Source: a virus
Taxonomy: Duplodnaviria; Heunggongvirae; Uroviricota; Caudoviricetes
Virus record (IMG/VR): IMGVR_UViG_648861009_000003
Reading direction: 5' to 3' (one strand)
Length of the DNA stretch: 22,328 nucleotides
The position numbers and the translations under genes were made by a program. The stretch's first letter is position 1; each line of letters starts with the position of its first letter. This document shows, in pieces, positions 4,369 through 16,878 of the stretch. The notes beneath the pieces were generated by a model, which saw only the letters and a program-made list of their open reading frames with translations, was not told the origin of the DNA and did not search any database.

Positions 4369-4814
4369 NNNNNNNNNNNNNNNNNNNNNNNNNNNNNNNN
4401 NNNNNNNNNNNNNNNNNNNNNNNNNNNNNNNNNNNNNNNNNNNNNNNNNNNNNNNNNNNNNNNNNNNNNNNNNNNNNNNNNNNNNNNNNNNNNNNNNNNN
4501 NNNNNNNNNNNNNNNNNNNNNNNNNNNNNNNNNNNNNNNNNNNNNNNNNNNNNNNNNNNNNNNNNNNNNNNNNNNNNNNNNNNNNNNNNNNNNNNNNNNN
4601 NNNNNNNNNNNNNNNNNNNNNNNNNNNNNNNNNNNNNNNNNNNNNNNNNNNNNNNNNNNNNNNNNNNNNNNNNNNNNNNNNNNNNNNNNNNNNNNNNNNN
4701 NNNNNNNNNNNNNNNNNNNNNNNNNNNNNNNNNNNNNNNNNNNNNNNNNNNNNNNNNNNNNNNNNNNNNNNNNNNNNNNNNNNNNNNNNNNNNNNNNNNN
4801 NNNNNNNNNNNNNN
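4369..4814. other. Run of 446 N (assembly/scaffold gap)
   Basis: Contiguous N characters; both flanks are copies of the same gam sequence. Confidence 0.95.
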
Positions 4815-11006: not shown

Positions 11007-11254
11007 CGGTTTTCATCGGTAACACACCATGTAATCTAGCAGTCAGCTTAGAAATAGGAGCGGCAGTTAAAGATTTTTCAGTTAGTAGAAAATTACTGTT
11101 ATTGCAGGGATCTAATCACCGGAGAGTCGTTCCATTTGTCTTATGATTACCTGAAGTCCGTTAGTTCGTTGGTAATCACCGTTTTTGTTAGAGAAGTAAG
11201 CATCGCTGACAAAATATTCTCAACGATGCCTGCTTTATTGCTACTACAAATTAA

Positions 11255-12756
11255 TTAAATTGCATCTGCAAACTCTGGGGTTTTTCGCTCAGGTATAATT
11301 GATGAGTTGCTGTTGTCACTTTTTTTATTTTCATGATTACGAATAGCCAATGACTCATTAAAGTCTTTTGCGACTGCTGTCTCAATAAATTCAATTTCTG
11401 AATCAGAGTGTTTTTTAACAGCTTCTTTGATCTCATCCAGAGTAACATAGAAAAACTCTTTTCTACGATTTACAAGATTGACTCTCTTTTTATCGAAGAC
11501 ATCATGTAGTTTTTTTCTAATGATGGAGCGTCCTCCGAATAAATCATGGCATGTACATCAAAAATAAAAGGAACAGATGCATCACCGAGCTCATTTACAC
11601 GGTCTTGCGGATCAAGACGTCGTGTCATGCCTATTTTATAAACATTCTCCCCAAAAGAACCTATGTTCGAAATAATATAAACATGACCTTGTTTGGTTTG
11701 TTGTGCCATGGATAATGCTCTTTGATGCTTTGATTCAGCCTGCGACAAACTCTGTTCTAGTTCGGCAATGCGATTTTCGAGGCGCTGCTTCATGTCACCA
11801 GTAACTTTTTCCATTTCCTTTCTTGCAGCTTCAATTGCTTTTTTATAACGGCGCTCTTCTGCCTCTGCGTCTTGCATGGCCTTTTCTATTTCTCGTTGTG
11901 CACGCTCCTCCTCTCTCATTTGTGCCCTTATTTCTGCCTGTTCTTCTTTTTCTTTCTGTTTTTGCTCACGATATTCATGGGTAAGCCACAATTCCTCAAG
12001 TTTTTTATTGAGGTATTTAGTGTTTATATATATGTGATTTTGCTCGTTTAGTTTATTTATGGCCTCAAATGCCTTTGTGATGCGTTCTTCCATTTTAGTG
12101 ATGTTTTTCCACGTGCAATTGCTAATTGCAGCATCACATTCATTATTAAATGCTCTAGTAGTTAGCCTGATATTTCTGTCTGTCATTTTTTTACCCTCTG
12201 CTCGAGAGCCTTCAACAGTCCATTGGGTTGTACAATATACTGCGCCAGAGTGGGTTTTATCCCGCAGCATTAATTTCTGTTCATCCCTGATGGATTTTAT
12301 TTTGTTTTTAAATTGCTCTGAATCTTCAAAATTAAAATGAGGTTCGTAAAATCCTAGTTCGGCTAGCTCAACATCTTCTGAATAAATAGAAATTTGCCTT
12401 ACTAGTTTATCATATATTTCTTTCTTCTCTTTATAAGTTCTTCTTAGCTCTTGGATTTGTTTATTGATACCATCCATTTTTTCAATGGTGTTTGTTAGTT
12501 CATTATTGGCATTTTCTTTTACTTTTAGGGATTCTTCTTTTATTATGGAGCATTCTTGCTCTGTTTTCTCAATAAGCTTCTTACATTCTTCTTCTACATT
12601 AAAATAATCTGCAAAGCGAGATTTGTATTCTTCATTTTTTTGATTGCTATCACTTAATTCTAATTGTATTTTTTTGATGCGTTTGATTGCAGCTATATAA
12701 AGAACAAGAACAACCAATAAAAATATGATTGCAAGTAATAGAGGAGTTTGAGTCAT
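11255..12756 (-). CDS. DUF4041/T5orf172 (GIY-YIG-like)-family protein with N-terminal TM helix and long coiled-coil; reading frame broken at a T7 homopolymer (11510..11516)
   Basis: The 428-aa ORF (11470..12756) contains GHVYIISNIGSFGENVYKIGMTRRLDPQDRVNELGDASVPFIFDVHAMIYSEDAPSL; the family-typical C-terminus LHDVFDKKRVNLVNRRKEFFYVTLDEIKEAVKKH... continues in the -1 frame to a stop at 11255. N-terminus LLLAIIFLLVVLVLYIAAI is hydrophobic; the gene is strongly AT-rich. Confidence 0.75.
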
Positions 12757-13065
12757 TCGTGCTATTCCTTACGGACAATTTAAGACGTTTTGTATTAAAT
12801 CCTGTTCAATGTGTATGCGGGTGATTGCTACCGCTTACAATCTTCATAATTATCAGTTAGATAGACTCGCTAGTAAATAATTTCATTTTTTGCAATATTC
12901 TTATTGAATATTTCAATTTATGAAATGAACTCTTTATCCTTTCAAGGTGAAAGGTTTCTTCTTCGGAAATATTTGCTCTCGTGTGACGTATAAAGACCTT
13001 TGATTTTCAAAAATCAGTAGGGAATAATATAGTTACTGTCGGCCTGAACACCCGGTGGTGGGGTT

Positions 13066-13155
13066 GCGCTAAACGGGGACGTTTATGCGCACACACAATC
13101 CAAACTCTCATCTCCATTCACAGATGCAGAAATGCACCTACGATTTTTTACATTC
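13066..13155. repeat. Direct repeat copy 1 (~90 bp, about 92% identical to 14999..15088)
   Basis: gcgctaaacggggacgtttatgcgcacacacaatccaaactctcatctccattcacagatgcagaaatgcacctacgattttttacattc. Confidence 0.9.
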
Positions 13156-13246: not shown

Positions 13247-13568
13247 TTGTAACTGTTGTAGCAGCTATGGATGTGATCATCATGGTGTCCATTTACTGGG
13301 GTTGACGACATGATTTATCCGGCGCTATATTCTGTGCGTTGCCGCAAAATCGGCACACGGGATTGGCGTCCCGGGATACTACTCAACGCATACCGCGTTA
13401 AGCGGTTTTTTTGTGCGCTAAGCACGGCTATGCCCAAATTATGGTGGGCTGTGTGAGGGCTTCTTCGGAAGCGCCGGGTTTGAGTAGCCGGTTACGCCAA
13501 CCTTACACAGTTCACCACCAGTCGATTGGCGTCGTTGGTGGTGATGGTTAACCTGATGAGGTGATACT

Positions 13569-14177
13569 ATGACTACTCAATTAGCATTCCACAAAACGAC
13601 GTTTACCCCGATTTGCCACAATAACAGAATTTGGCTTACTGCCACTGAAGTTGGTTTAGCACTGGAATATGCGGACGATAAAGCAGTTCAGCGCATTTAC
13701 TCTCGGCACTCAGATGAATTCACAGATATGATGACAAGGGTGGTCAAAGTGACCACCCCTCGTGGAATGCAGGAGTCTCGAGTATTTAGCCTTCGCGGAG
13801 CCCATTTGATCGCCATGTTTGCTCGTACTCCTGTGGCCAAAGAATTCCGCCGCTGGGTTCTGGATATTCTCGATCGAGAAGTTCAACAATCCCCAATCAC
13901 AAAACAATTCACTGATAACGAACTTTGCACACTCGCCTGGTTATGGCGAGCAAGTGATACGATGTTAACCGCCTGCCAGAACGTTACGCCCCTTCTTCAG
14001 GTCGCAGAGCATCGCGAAGCAGGTAGATTCACTTCAATCGAACAAGAATATCCTCGGATACTCAACAGGGCGCGAGAAATCCTTGCCAGAGAAACGGCGC
14101 ATGTAAAATTCCAACCGTGGCAGGATGATAAGTGGAGTCGTGTGTTACCATATTTCCGTCAGAATCTGTTGCAATAA
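13569..14177 (+). CDS. Bro-N / P22 AR N-terminal domain protein (Roi/antirepressor-like)
   Basis: 202 aa; N-terminal IWLTATEVGLALEYADDKAVQRIYSRH...SRVFSLRGAHLIAMFARTPVAKEFRRWVLDIL fits the Bro-N/AntA-type domain pattern. Confidence 0.75.
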   Translation: MTTQLAFHKTTFTPICHNNRIWLTATEVGLALEYADDKAVQRIYSRHSDEFTDMMTRVVKVTTPRGMQESRVFSLRGAHLIAMFARTPVAKEFRRWVLDILDREVQQSPITKQFTDNELCTLAWLWRASDTMLTACQNVTPLLQVAEHREAGRFTSIEQEYPRILNRAREILARETAHVKFQPWQDDKWSRVLPYFRQNLLQ

Positions 14178-14194: not shown

Positions 14195-14238
14195 ACTGCC
14201 AGCATTCTGCGATGACGGAAGTGCTGGCATTTTTTTTG
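14195..14238 (+). terminator. Rho-independent terminator after the Bro-N gene
   Basis: ctgccagcat...gtgctggca stem followed by tttttttt, 20 nt after the stop codon. Confidence 0.5.
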
Positions 14239-14412
14239 GTAATGTGCGAGTCCATTTCATAAAATACGGGTACTGGAACTGGACGATATAATCTAAAAGA
14301 TACCATTATCAGTAGCATTAAAATCGCTATGTGCCGATACGGATATAAATTATATTGATTGTTCACATACCTTATTGGATATTACTGAGGGGTGTTTATA
14401 TAAGGTGTAACG

Positions 14413-14937
14413 ATGATGTGGAACTTTGACAGTGCCGACTTAAGTGCAATAGCAGCAGGCATTTCTGCGTTTGGCACATTAGCCGCAGCGGGGTCGGCGC
14501 TTGCAAGTTGGTGCACGTCAAAAAAAGCGCTGCAGCTACAAAATAGAGTTTACCTTTATGAGTCTTTAAAGGCTTGCGCTGAGAGAGCCAATTCATCAGC
14601 TAAAGATAAGCGCGGATCTGAATGGAGCGTTAATGATGCAGCGGATATCATCAGGTGCCTAGTACGGGCGATGGAGCTCATCAAGCAGGATAGCCAGCAG
14701 AAAGAAGGTAATCAGGCATTAATGTTGAAACAGTACTTTGTTAATCTGCTAATAATGGAACTGTACGAGGAAGTTCATAACGGTGATGCGGCTGATTCTG
14801 TTTTTAAAAGTACGGAACCTACACAAGTACTTGATAACTTATGGAGCAAATGGCAGGAGGCTATAGCTTTTTTGATATTTGGAATTACCCAGTTGCGACT
14901 GAGGAAGACTTGGCAGACTAATTTTCAGCACATTTGA
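14413..14937 (+). CDS. Unknown 174-aa protein with an N-terminal hydrophobic (membrane-anchor-like) segment
   Basis: ORF with its own upstream AT-rich promoter-like region after a terminator; residues ~11-34 (LSAIAAGISAFGTLAAAGSALASW) are hydrophobic; no family recognised. Confidence 0.6.
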   Translation: MMWNFDSADLSAIAAGISAFGTLAAAGSALASWCTSKKALQLQNRVYLYESLKACAERANSSAKDKRGSEWSVNDAADIIRCLVRAMELIKQDSQQKEGNQALMLKQYFVNLLIMELYEEVHNGDAADSVFKSTEPTQVLDNLWSKWQEAIAFLIFGITQLRLRKTWQTNFQHI

Positions 14938-14998
14938 TTTCCAATAATCAACCAGCCATAATCATGCCATTGGAGCTTGAACAACTCCGGTGACTTCT

Positions 14999-15088
14999 GC
15001 GCTAAACGGGGACGTTTATGCGCACATACAATCCAAACTCTCTTCTCCCTTCACAGATGCAGAGATGCACCTGCGATTTTTTGCATCC
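14999..15088. repeat. Direct repeat copy 2 (~90 bp)
   Basis: gcgctaaacggggacgtttatgcgcacatacaatccaaactctcttctcccttcacagatgcagagatgcacctgcgattttttgcatcc. Confidence 0.9.
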
Positions 15089-15119
15089 AGCGTTTGACCT
15101 CTGCGGAGGTGAAGCGTGA
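15018..15119 (+). CDS. ylcH: Small ORF (33 aa), ylcH-like
   Basis: SD plus ATG within repeat copy 2; [33 protein letters not shown]; sits directly upstream of ybcN as ylcH does in DLP12 (order recalled from memory). Confidence 0.4.
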
Positions 15120-15571
15120 ACCTCCCACAAGACGGCATCAAATTGCATCGTGGTAACTTCACCGCTATCGGCCAGCAGATCCAGCCTTATCTGGAGGAAG
15201 GCAAATGCTTTCGCATGGTGCTTAAACCGTGGCGTGAGAAACGCAGTCTTTCCCAGAATGCACTCAGCCACATGTGGTACAGCGAAATCAGTGAATACCT
15301 CATCAGCAGGGGTAAAACGTTCGCCACTCCAGCTTGGGTAAAAGATGCTCTCAAACACACATATCTCGGTTATGAAACCAAAGACCTGGTTGATGTCGTA
15401 ACCGGTGAGATCACCACTATCCAGTCGTTACGCCATACCTCCGATCTTGATACCGGAGAGATGTATATCTTCCTGTGTAAGGTTGAAGCCTGGGCGGTGA
15501 ATATTGGCTGCCACCTGACTATTCCGCAGAGCTGCGAGTTCCAGCTGCTGCGCGACAAGCAGGAGGCGTAA
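15116..15571 (+). CDS. ybcN: NinB-family recombination protein (YbcN-like)
   Basis: 151 aa with a GTG start; first gene of a tightly overlapping nin operon; the [16 protein letters not shown] region resembles the lambda NinB SLDQN motif. Confidence 0.75.
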
Positions 15572-16383: not shown

Positions 16384-16878
16384 TGTTTGAGTTTAATATN
16401 NNNNNNNNNNNNNNNNNNNNNNNNNNNNNNNNNNNNNNNNNNNNNNNNNNNNNNNNNNNNNNNNNNNNNNNNNNNNNNNNNNNNNNNNNNNNNNNNNNNN
16501 NNNNNNNNNNNNNNNNNNNNNNNNNNNNNNNNNNNNNNNNNNNNNNNNNNNNNNNNNNNNNNNNNNNNNNNNNNNNNNNNNNNNNNNNNNNNNNNNNNNN
16601 NNNNNNNNNNNNNNNNNNNNNNNNNNNNNNNNNNNNNNNNNNNNNNNNNNNNNNNNNNNNNNNNNNNNNNNNNNNNNNNNNNNNNNNNNNNNNNNNNNNN
16701 NNNNNNNNNNNNNNNNNNNNNNNNNNNNNNNNNNNNNNNNNNNNNNNNNNNNNNNNNNNNAGAACTTCTTCGCCACCGCTGGGGGCGTCTGCGCTTATAT
16801 CGTTTCCCCGGCTCTGTTTTGACCGATTACCGAATACTGAAGAATTACGCCAAAACACTGACAGGAGCAGGAGTATGA
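16380..16878 (+). CDS. ylcG: ylcG-like small gene split by the N-gap (5' part 16380..16399, 3' part 16761..16878)
   Basis: The 5' flank encodes MMFEFN and the 3' flank encodes [38 protein letters not shown]; joined by about 3 nt they would reconstitute a 46-aa protein matching DLP12 YlcG as I recall it. Confidence 0.6.
16400..16760. other. Run of 361 N (assembly/scaffold gap)
   Basis: Contiguous N characters; the flanks are the two halves of ylcG. Confidence 0.95.

What the first reader, a model, noticed from the sequence alone, without database searches (positions are those of the whole stretch)
14413..14937. Orphan 174-aa protein with an N-terminal transmembrane-like segment, with its own promoter-like region, downstream of a terminator
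The gene follows a rho-independent terminator (14195..14238) and a ~170-bp AT-rich region (ttgatt...tatatt-like elements), which suggests autonomous expression in the lysogen. The product has a hydrophobic N-terminal helix followed by a helical, charged domain and no family I can recognise. Small membrane-anchored morons of this kind are often superinfection-exclusion or abortive-infection factors. Its adjacency to a Bro-N protein raises the possibility of a two-component module.
Basis: inference. Interest (0 to 1): 0.5.

Follow-up and report, generated by a model that had tools for sequence, protein, structure and literature searches.

The report
Uncharacterised membrane-anchored prophage moron, frameshifted here
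This is a real but uncharacterised small gene carried as self-expressed cargo by lambda-like prophages of E. coli and its relatives; it probably encodes a membrane-anchored protein, it works independently of the neighbouring Bro-N gene, and the copy in this window has lost its conserved tail through a one-base deletion.

Summary
The ORF at 14413..14937 is a real gene under purifying selection (dN/dS about 0.1). Its 174-aa length comes from a 1-bp deletion in a T7 run at 14868-14873. Other copies encode 168-169 aa and end in a conserved acidic tail, FFDIWNYPVATEEDLAD.

The family is PHROG phrog_1779, function unknown. It has no Pfam, NCBIfam, PADLOC, PDB-sequence or fold match. Only 36 representatives were found among 1.84 billion proteins, and every context examined is a lambdoid prophage of Enterobacteriaceae.

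The upstream terminator is real. A sigma-70-type promoter (TTGATT, 17 nt, GATATT at 14355-14383) is conserved in nine divergent variants with different upstream neighbours. Some relatives also carry their own terminator, so this is a classic moron. It sits in the ren-ninB cargo slot next to SNIPE/PD-lambda-1.

The alanine/serine-rich N-terminal helix is the most conserved part of the protein. Flanking charges predict an N-out/C-in membrane anchor.

The Bro-N neighbour belongs to a separate, already characterised isrK/C4-RNA-controlled antirepressor module. It is absent or truncated beside many intact copies, so the two-gene idea is not supported.

A role in excluding other phages at the inner membrane is the likeliest reading, but it is untested. 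Moderate-to-low interest.

The parts
14197..14237 (+). Intrinsic terminator that closes the upstream isrK/C4-antirepressor unit. The stem spans 14197-14229 and the T8 run 14230-14237.
   Evidence: fold: -23.2 kcal/mol, z = -2.6; T8 at 14230.
14355..14383 (+). Promoter of the gene: -35 TTGATT (14355-14360), a 17-nt spacer, and -10 GATATT (14378-14383). An A/T-rich stretch lies just upstream. An imperfect inverted repeat (ACCTT...AGGGGT) brackets the -10 element.
   Evidence: TTGnnn, exactly 17 nt, then GATATT in nine distinct variants (window, L003, L030, L058, L060/62, L064/65, L082, L014, L015, L017) with diverged spacers and different upstream genes. It scores only 8/12 against consensus, so it was not listed.
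14402..14407 (+). Shine-Dalgarno sequence AAGGTG, 5 nt before ATG 14413 and 8 nt before ATG 14416.
   Evidence: sequence; purine-rich equivalents are present in the other variants.
14413..14937 (+). The ORF as it reads in the window (174 aa; the exact sequence is WP_000990011.1). It is a frameshift allele of the 169-aa phrog_1779 protein.
14440..14511 (+). Codons 10-33: the Ala/Ser/Gly-rich hydrophobic helix, predicted to be an N-out/C-in membrane anchor. It is the most conserved segment of the family.
   Evidence: P0041 carries the same helix as a fourth hydrophobic segment.
14868..14873 (+). T6 run that is T7 in relatives; this is the site of the -1 frameshift. With T7 the frame would end at TAA 14919-14921 (window numbering).
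   Evidence: The same shift occurs on a second allele backbone (P0065).
13302..14177 (+). Neighbouring, separate unit. It comprises a promoter-like site (13302-13331), isrK (13340-13412), a C4-type RNA (13437-13522, overlapped by a 46-aa ORF at 13411-13551 in the position of Gifsy-1 orf45) and the Bro-N/P22AR_C antirepressor gene (13569-14177).
   Evidence: PMC4825925.
11254..12756 (-). Context: the SNIPE/PD-lambda-1 defence gene (canonically 500 aa). In the window it is cut to a 428-aa ORF (11470-12756) by a second 1-bp deletion in a T run at 11510.
14934..15120 (+). Downstream boundary: the conserved structured leader of ninB/ybcN, including the 33-aa ylcH mini-ORF (15019-15120). The window gene has no terminator of its own before this element; relatives L060-L065 do.

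Best explanation
A self-contained moron of lambdoid prophages. It has its own sigma-70-type promoter and sits in the variable cargo slot between the replication genes (P, ren) and ninB/ybcN. It encodes a protein of about 169 aa.

Predicted architecture:
- a 9-residue acidic N-tail facing the periplasm;
- one weakly hydrophobic Ala/Ser/Gly-rich transmembrane helix;
- a cytoplasmic all-helical acidic domain of about 120 residues, ending in a conserved FF...DEDLxD tail.

The transmembrane helix is the best-conserved part of the protein. Small residues are fixed around a narrow stripe of bulky residues. I therefore infer that the helix packs specifically against other helices, either copies of itself or a host inner-membrane protein, and is more than an anchor.

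Most likely role (inferred, not shown): a stand-alone prophage-encoded factor that acts at the cytoplasmic face of the inner membrane to block or abort infection by other phages. It acts without the Bro-N neighbour.

The copy in this window has lost the conserved tail through a T7-to-T6 frameshift and is probably inactive.

Shown here: gene reality, the family, the frameshift, the terminator, the conserved promoter, the variable neighbours, and conservation of the hydrophobic helix. Inferred: membrane topology, expression in the lysogen, and the anti-phage role.
For: Real gene and family:
- phrog_1779 at E = 5e-92.
- 36 representatives among 1.84e9 proteins.
- dN/dS about 0.1.

Moron anatomy:
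- Terminator upstream.
- TTGnnn-17-GATATT invariant in nine variants with different upstream genes.
- Own terminator after the gene in L060-L065, L006 and L009.
- G+C 44.6% against 51-52% in the flanking core genes.
- In lambda, ren and ninB are only 73 nt apart. Here the gap holds SNIPE, the isrK/C4-ant unit and this gene.

Independence from Bro-N.

Membrane helix:
- Kyte-Doolittle 19-residue mean of at least 1.57 in 29/31 members.
- The N-flank is net negative or neutral in all members. The C-flank is net positive in 28/31.
- Residues 18-32 are the most conserved 15-residue window, with entropy 1.44 against a protein mean of 2.18.
- P0041 fuses the domain behind three further hydrophobic segments, in a register that again puts the C-domain in the cytoplasm (my reading).

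Cargo-slot company: SNIPE/PD-lambda-1, a membrane-bound anti-phage nuclease, lies in the same slot. An S-type pyocin lies beside the L018 homologue.

Retention: the gene is intact in decaying DLP12-like prophages where rusA and the Bro-N gene are pseudogenes.
Against: - There is no functional evidence of any kind.
- No PADLOC, Pfam or NCBIfam hit.
- hhalign probability below 1% against lambda SieB and RexB.
- Fold searches return only generic helical bundles.
- The N-terminal helix is only marginally hydrophobic, with a Hessa-type sum of -1 to +4 kcal/mol. AlphaFold gives it pLDDT below 50. A soluble coiled coil is therefore not excluded.
- The gene always points the same way as the early operon. 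Some distant homologues overlap the preceding gene and have no promoter of their own (L009). Expression during lytic growth is therefore certain in at least some phages, and a lytic-cycle role is possible.
- Promoter activity in a lysogen has not been measured.
- The accession numbers of this protein and two neighbours were absent from the supplementary tables of one recent defence-prediction study.
Confidence: 0.4

Rival explanations
1. An early lytic-cycle accessory protein involved in host takeover or phage development. It would be made from antiterminated pR/pL transcripts and tether or sequester a cytoplasmic host or phage factor at the membrane. Candidates include something in replication or recombination, given that its neighbours are P/DnaB, ninB and theta-like genes.
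For: - The gene is always co-oriented with the early operon, either just upstream of ninB/DUF1367 or in the pL operon after N.
- In two subclades it directly follows a DNA_pol3_theta-like gene. In Pantoea its start overlaps that gene, leaving no room for its own promoter.
- In the window no terminator separates it from the ninB leader.
Against: - It is dispensable: present in only about 3% of complete E. coli genomes (180 of 5426) and absent from lambda.
- A private promoter and, in several lineages, a private terminator are conserved. An operon-internal early gene would not need them.
- It stays intact in cryptic DLP12-like prophages that have lost lytic functions.
- Its G+C is lower than that of the early core genes.
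Confidence: 0.25
2. A lysogenic-conversion factor unrelated to phage defence. For example, a modulator of a host inner-membrane protein (transporter, protease or stress sensor) that benefits the lysogen in the gut.
For: - The same slot carries non-defence cargo in related prophages: emrE, ybcK, and ybcL/ybcM in K-12 (the K-12 gene order is from my own knowledge).
- The conserved promoter and the membrane helix are equally compatible with this reading.
Against: - No similarity to any known conversion factor.
- The family is confined to prophage accessory slots.
- The neighbouring cargo in the window type is a defence gene.
Confidence: 0.15
3. One half of a two-gene module with the adjacent Bro-N/P22AR_C protein.
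For: In E. coli-type loci, at least the 3' half of the Bro-N gene, the terminator and this gene are contiguous. PhiR5_1 pairs a 68%-identical Bro-N variant with the gene.
Against: - A strong terminator and a separate promoter lie between the two genes.
- Bro-N belongs to the isrK/C4-RNA-controlled antirepressor unit.
- Divergent homologues have DUF551 or unrelated genes upstream.
- About 20 loci, including E. coli 55989, keep the gene intact beside a Bro-N pseudogene.
Confidence: 0.04
4. For this window only: the copy is a dead allele, or the frameshift is a sequencing error, so nothing functional is encoded here whatever the family does.
For: - The T7-to-T6 deletion removes the conserved tail.
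- A second T-run deletion truncates SNIPE at about residue 415, within its nuclease domain.
- Two of the nine homopolymers of 7 nt or longer in the aligned 10.2 kb are short by one base.
Against: - The exact 174-aa product is on record from both NCBI and an independent Logan read assembly (WP_000990011.1, 2 contigs).
- The same shift occurs on another allele backbone on 10 contigs.
- The exact 428-aa SNIPE is on 36 contigs.
- These points argue for real, recurrent mutations rather than random errors. Whether the shortened protein keeps any activity is unknown.
Confidence: 0.55

Closest known systems
PHROG family phrog_1779 (function unknown)
   Same: Full-length sequence match: E = 5e-92 for the window ORF over residues 1-154 and 7e-102 for the canonical protein over 1-169. 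All 31 aligned family members hit it.
   Different: The window product diverges from the profile after residue 154 because of the frameshift. The family carries no annotation, so membership says nothing about function.
Morons of lambdoid phages (promoter-gene-terminator cassettes between conserved genes, as defined by Hendrix and colleagues; from my own knowledge)
   Same: - Its own conserved promoter.
- Its own terminator in several lineages.
- Inserted where lambda has a 73-nt gap.
- Lower G+C than the flanking genes.
- Same orientation as the surrounding operon.
   Different: In the window type the cassette has no terminator of its own and runs into the ninB leader. Some distant homologues have lost the promoter and are embedded in the pL operon.
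Small membrane proteins of prophages that exclude other phages: lambda SieB and RexB, P22 SieA, HK97 gp15 (functions from my own knowledge)
   Same: A small prophage-encoded protein with a predicted inner-membrane helix, accessory, apparently promoter-equipped, located in early-region cargo slots. The P0050 homologue sits just after N, the region where lambda carries sieB.
   Different: No sequence relationship: hhalign probability below 1% to SieB and RexB, and no Pfam or PADLOC hit. It has one weakly hydrophobic Ala/Ser-rich helix rather than several classical transmembrane segments. No exclusion phenotype is known. SieA and gp15 were not compared here.
SNIPE / PD-lambda-1 (Saxton et al., Nature 2026, PMC13190303)
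   Same: Immediate neighbour in the same cargo slot. It is also a single-gene unit. The paper shows experimentally an N-out/C-in single-pass anchor with a cytoplasmic working domain, the same topology predicted for this protein.
   Different: Unrelated sequence. The 169-aa protein has no DUF4041 or GIY-YIG domain. Only about 14 of about 60 E. coli-type loci carry both genes, so the two are not a system.
isrK-orf45-anrP module of Gifsy-1 and the P1 immI c4-icd-ant module (the P1 gene order is from my own knowledge)
   Same: This describes the neighbour, not the finding. Rfam finds isrK (58.7 bits) and C4 (74.8 bits) upstream of a Bro-N/P22AR_C antirepressor-like gene, followed by a terminator.
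   Different: The 169-aa gene lies beyond the terminator of that module and occurs without it elsewhere.

Membership tests
phrog_1779 | Significant full-length match to the family profile. | tested here: met
   E = 5e-92, residues 1-154 of 174; 31 of 31 aligned relatives match; canonical protein 1-169 of 169.
Moron (autonomous cassette in a lambdoid genome) | Own promoter immediately upstream. | tested here: met
   Comparative only. TTGnnn-17-GATATT is invariant in nine variants with different upstream genes. Activity was not measured.
Moron (autonomous cassette in a lambdoid genome) | Own terminator immediately downstream. | tested here: inconclusive
   Present in L060-L065 (GGCCTCTCCGGAGGCC plus a T run), L006 and L009. 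Absent in the window type, where the next terminator-like hairpin lies inside the ninB leader (15051-15085).
Moron (autonomous cassette in a lambdoid genome) | Inserted between genes that are adjacent in related phages, with deviant base composition. | tested here: met
   Lambda ren and ninB are 73 nt apart. Gene G+C is 44.6% against 51-52% in the flanking genes.
Bitopic inner-membrane protein (N-out/C-in) | One hydrophobic helix of about 20 residues, with charges following the positive-inside rule. | tested here: inconclusive
   The Kyte-Doolittle 19-residue mean passes 1.6 in most members, and the flank charges fit N-out/C-in. Hydrophobicity is marginal, AlphaFold confidence is low there, and no dedicated TM predictor or experiment was available.
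SieB (lambda/P22 superinfection exclusion B) and RexB | Sequence or profile homology. | tested here: not met
   hhalign probability 0.05% (SieB) and 0.4% (RexB). No member hit a SieB model or any other exclusion-protein model in Pfam.
Known anti-phage defence systems (PADLOC-DB 2.0) | Match to any model. | tested here: not met
   0 families for the 169-aa protein. The neighbouring gene matches PD-Lambda-1 at 1e-198.
Superinfection exclusion / abortive infection (functional class) | Reduces infection by other phages when expressed. | not testable with these tools
   Needs phage challenge experiments.
Two-gene module with Bro-N | Conserved co-occurrence and co-transcription of the two genes. | tested here: not met
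   Terminator and separate promoter lie between them. Bro-N is absent or truncated next to intact copies.
HEPN toxins (weak Foldseek resemblance) | R-x(4-6)-H catalytic motif and a significant fold match. | tested here: not met
   Foldseek E of at least 0.8 and TM-score at most 0.36. The near-invariant residues are S32, Q43, L52, N60, W71 and W147, and no conserved histidine appears in the alignment or the columns tabulated.

The most novel reading that the evidence does not exclude
phrog_1779 is a new single-gene anti-phage family. In this reading it is a membrane-embedded protein whose conserved Ala/Ser-faced helix assembles into an oligomer or clamps a host inner-membrane component used for phage DNA entry. 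Its cytoplasmic helical domain and acidic DEDLxD tail would sense or block the incoming phage. It would be expressed constitutively in lysogens from a private promoter. The T7 tract near the 3' end would act as a recurrent on/off mutational switch.
Probability: 0.25. Interest if true: 0.55.

Novelty: new member of a known kind. Interest (0 to 1): 0.3.

Why it matters
If the protein does exclude or abort other phages, it would add a sequence-novel single-gene system to the cargo slot that also yielded SNIPE/PD-lambda-1. The gene is present in at least 180 of 5426 complete E. coli genomes (about 3%), including the O104:H4 outbreak lineage, and on more than 1000 contigs. It would also give a compact model for how a weakly hydrophobic, alanine-rich helix can carry function.

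Two practical points follow from what is already shown. The ren-ninB gap of DLP12-type prophages is a stack of independent units: SNIPE, the isrK/C4-antirepressor unit, and this moron. Adjacency there should not be read as a functional link. Annotation pipelines also currently accept a frameshifted 174-aa product as a normal protein.

Tried and rejected
- Family scans of the canonical protein (Pfam was run on the window ORF) against Pfam, NCBIfam and PADLOC, and Pfam scans of all 31 aligned relatives, gave nothing beyond noise.
- PDB sequence search returned only designed helical proteins, at E above 0.01.
- hhalign against lambda SieB and RexB found no relationship.
- Bro-N partnership was rejected on comparative grounds.
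- A link to SNIPE was rejected because co-occurrence is partial.
- A signal peptide or lipoprotein is not suggested. The N-region is acidic, and Cys34 has no lipobox and is not conserved.
- Literature: no paper holds WP_000990010, the only hits for the PhiR phage names were unrelated papers, and the supplements of the DefensePredictor paper hold none of the three accession numbers searched. Brenes and Laub 2025 (Cell Host Microbe) is cited in the SNIPE paper as the source of its temperate-phage panel. The PhiR26_1 and PhiR5_1 phages may come from that panel (my guess). The paper is not held in the library.
- The alternative promoter hit at 14236-14265 (9/12) is not conserved outside the E. coli lineage, so I did not prefer it.
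- A family-wide locus search with the broad alignment failed for lack of a conserved peptide. The narrower alignment was used instead.

Full report
**What is at the coordinates**

The ORF 14413..14937 (+) is present and would give 174 aa. It has a good ribosome-binding site (AAGGTG, 14402-14407) and two adjacent ATGs. The window is a lambdoid prophage of the DLP12 type. It is 99.95% identical over 10.2 kb to E. coli 118UI. In that strain the prophage sits next to tRNA-Arg and carries int, exo, bet, gam and kil on its left. On the right the order is: cI-like repressor, cro-like regulator, YdaT-domain gene, O, P, ren, SNIPE (minus strand), Bro-N, this gene, ylcH, ybcN, ninE, ybcO, rusA, ylcG, quuD.

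**The copy in the window is frameshifted**

The alignment to 118UI has only two gaps. Both are single-base deletions in long T runs. One is in this gene: T7 has become T6 at 14868-14873. The other is in the upstream SNIPE gene at 11510.

Against complete E. coli genomes, 180 carry a place covering at least 80% of the gene, and every full-length hit listed spans 526 nt against the window's 525. The canonical product is 169 aa (WP_000990010.1) and ends AIAFFDIWNYPVATEEDLAD. About 80 other loci encode that ending. F153, F154, D166, L167 and D169 are conserved even among relatives only 23-30% identical overall. The window product replaces this tail with 22 unrelated residues.

The frameshift is probably real rather than a random error, for three reasons:
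- The exact 174-aa sequence is on record as WP_000990011.1, from NCBI and from an independent read assembly.
- The same shift occurs on a different allele backbone (P0065, 10 contigs).
- The exact 428-aa truncated SNIPE is on 36 contigs.

However, two of nine homopolymers of 7 nt or longer are affected, so a systematic homopolymer error cannot be excluded without resequencing.

**Gene reality and family**

Pairwise dN/dS is 0.10-0.16 wherever dS is measurable. The protein matches PHROG phrog_1779, function unknown, at E = 5e-92. All 31 aligned relatives match it too. There is no Pfam, NCBIfam, PADLOC or PDB-sequence match.

An exhaustive profile search of 1.84 billion representative proteins found only 36 members. 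Every source calls the protein hypothetical. Among isolated phages it occurs in Escherichia phages PhiR26_1 and PhiR5_1, with a relative in Erwinia phage vB_EhrS_49. It is present in at least 180 of 5426 complete E. coli genomes, including 55989 and O104:H4 C227-11.

**The expression unit**

The hairpin-plus-U8 upstream (14197-14237) folds at -23.2 kcal/mol, z = -2.6. The 174-bp spacer after it is 34.5% G+C.

I anchored nine distinct upstream variants on the gene start. All have TTG(A/C)nn, exactly 17 nt, then GATATT, 29-33 nt before the start codon, with an A/T-rich stretch upstream. The spacer and flanks have diverged and the upstream gene differs. In the window the elements are TTGATT at 14355-14360 and GATATT at 14378-14383. 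By consensus this is only 8 of 12 matches, below the scan threshold. The argument rests on conservation.

In L060-L065 the gene is followed by its own terminator (GGCCTCTCCGGAGGCC plus a T run). The distant homologues in L006 and L009 also have one. In lambda, ren and ninB are 73 nt apart, with only tR2 between them. The gene's G+C is 44.6% against 51-52% for P/ren and ybcN-rusA.

This is the anatomy of a moron. In the window type there is no private terminator, and transcription would run into the ninB leader.

**The Bro-N neighbour is a separate unit**

Rfam finds isrK (13340-13412, 58.7 bits) and a C4-type antisense RNA (13437-13522, 74.8 bits). They lie directly upstream of the Bro-N/P22AR_C gene, behind a 10/12 promoter-like site at 13302-13331. 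This is the isrK-orf45-anrP arrangement characterised in Gifsy-1, where the RNA switches on translation of an antirepressor (PMC4825925). The terminator at 14197 closes that unit.

The upstream neighbour of the 169-aa gene varies across loci:
- DUF551 proteins in L014 and L015.
- Unrelated hypothetical proteins in L017 and L004.
- A 68%-identical Bro-N variant with a divergent Arc gene in PhiR5_1.
- A Bro-N gene reduced to its C-terminal half (annotated pseudogene) in E. coli 55989 and about 20 IMG/VR and metagenome loci of the ren-emrE-ybcK type. There the 169-aa gene is intact.

More distant homologues lie in the pL operon, after N or after a DNA_pol3_theta-like gene. In L018 one lies in the replication-nin slot beside an S-type pyocin. 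No partner gene is conserved. SNIPE accompanies the gene in only about 14 of about 60 E. coli-type loci.

**The protein**

AlphaFold2 models (pLDDT 69 and 73) are all-helical. Confidence is good for residues 40-155 and low for 1-29 and the last 10 residues. The protein is acidic, with pI 4.6.

Residues 10-33 form a hydrophobic segment with these properties:
- The best 19-residue Kyte-Doolittle mean is at least 1.57 in 29 of 31 members.
- Between 47% and 74% of its residues are Ala, Gly, Ser or Thr.
- The N-flank is net negative or neutral. The C-flank is net positive in 28 of 31 members.

By the positive-inside rule (established knowledge), this gives a periplasmic N-tail of about 9 residues and a cytoplasmic C-domain. 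One relative, P0041, places the same helix after three further hydrophobic segments and a basic N-terminus. That yields the same orientation (my reading).

Residues 18-32 are the most conserved 15-residue window of the whole family, with entropy 1.44 against a mean of 2.18. Small residues are fixed at positions 18, 19, 21, 22, 24-26, 28, 29 and 32. Ser32 is invariant. Bulky residues are confined to positions 20, 23, 27 and 30. A simple anchor would not be conserved like this. I infer specific helix-helix packing.

Hydrophobicity is marginal, however (Hessa-type sums of -1 to +4 kcal/mol). Membrane insertion still needs to be shown.

**Function**

The inference therefore rests on architecture and location:
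- a private promoter;
- a conserved membrane-type helix with a cytoplasmic domain;
- restriction to prophage cargo slots that also hold SNIPE and a pyocin;
- retention in decaying prophages.

I rank the readings as follows:
- A stand-alone phage-exclusion or abortive-infection factor at the inner membrane: about 0.4 including the anatomy, and about 0.25-0.3 for the anti-phage role itself.
- An early lytic accessory function: 0.25.
- A non-defence conversion function: 0.15.
- The Bro-N module: about 0.04.

**Verdict**

The moron interpretation is supported by comparative evidence. The Bro-N module is not supported. The exclusion function is plausible but untested. The finding is an uncharacterised, narrowly distributed member of a familiar kind of prophage cargo, and its interest is moderate to low.

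Noticed in passing
window 11254-12756 (-), deletion at 11510: The upstream gene is SNIPE/PD-lambda-1 (PADLOC E = 1e-198; canonically 500 aa). In the window a 1-bp deletion in a T8 run truncates it to 428 aa, at about residue 415 and within the nuclease domain. The exact truncated protein (WP_244555784.1) is on 36 contigs, so it looks like a real, spread allele.
   Followed up: partly
window 13302-13551: Rfam isrK (13340-13412) and a C4-type antisense RNA (13437-13522) were found. A sub-threshold c4-a1b1 target hit lies at 13325-13377, a 10/12 promoter-like site at 13302-13331, and a 46-aa ORF at 13411-13551 in the position of Gifsy-1 orf45. Together with the Bro-N gene this is an RNA-controlled antirepressor module inside the ren-ninB gap.
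   Followed up: partly
window 14934-15120: The leader of ninB/ybcN is conserved in seven divergent lambdoid loci. It contains:
- a promoter-like TTGATT-17-CATAAT with the palindrome TTGATTnnnnnnAATCAA;
- a hairpin with an invariant CCUGAACAA loop and compensatory stem changes;
- a second hairpin with a GGGA loop that also covaries;
- the 33-aa ylcH mini-ORF, which overlaps the ybcN start;
- a terminator-like hairpin with a T6 run.

Eight of the 27 predicted pairs show double changes. There is no Rfam match. Lambda has only tR2 at this position.
   Followed up: partly
window 13065-13153 and 14998-15086: An 89-bp direct repeat (93% identical). It covers part of the ninB leader/ylcH and brackets the isrK/C4-antirepressor unit plus the 169-aa gene. 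This suggests the cassette entered, or can be exchanged, by recombination at this linker sequence.
   Followed up: no
window 14366-14396: An inverted repeat brackets the -10 element of the gene's promoter and varies in sequence between lineages while staying complementary. Examples are TACCCTGA...TCAGGGTA in L060, TACCCT...AGGGTA in L014 and L064, and CCCC...GGGG in L017. It is weak in the window (ACCTT...AGGGGT) and in L015, L058 and L082. It could be an operator or a hairpin in read-through transcripts; this is unexplained.
   Followed up: partly
window 14868-14873; proteins P0065 and P0073: The same T7-to-T6 frameshift is found on a second allele backbone (173 aa, 10 contigs). Another locus (L078) has a different late frameshift. 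The T7 tract may be a recurrent mutational hotspot that switches off the conserved tail.
   Followed up: partly
window 4369-4814 and 16400-16760: Two runs of N. The second lies inside ylcG. It corresponds to only 3 nt in E. coli 118UI, so the window holds about 358 extra masked bases there.
   Followed up: no
loci L058, L080, L081 (protein P0002): A variant of the gene whose first ~45 codons read MIIWGFDGSDWSCNGG...CQEEVLKKTLQPQNR in place of the Ala-rich helix, while the rest of the protein is conserved. It looks like a pair of compensating frameshifts that would remove the membrane helix.
   Followed up: no
L084 (E. coli 55989) and about 20 IMG/VR loci: The slot just upstream of ylcH-ybcN is a cargo hotspot. 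DLP12-type prophages carry emrE and ybcK there, followed by a truncated Bro-N gene and this gene. K-12 carries ybcL/ybcM at the same place (the K-12 order is from my own knowledge).
   Followed up: partly
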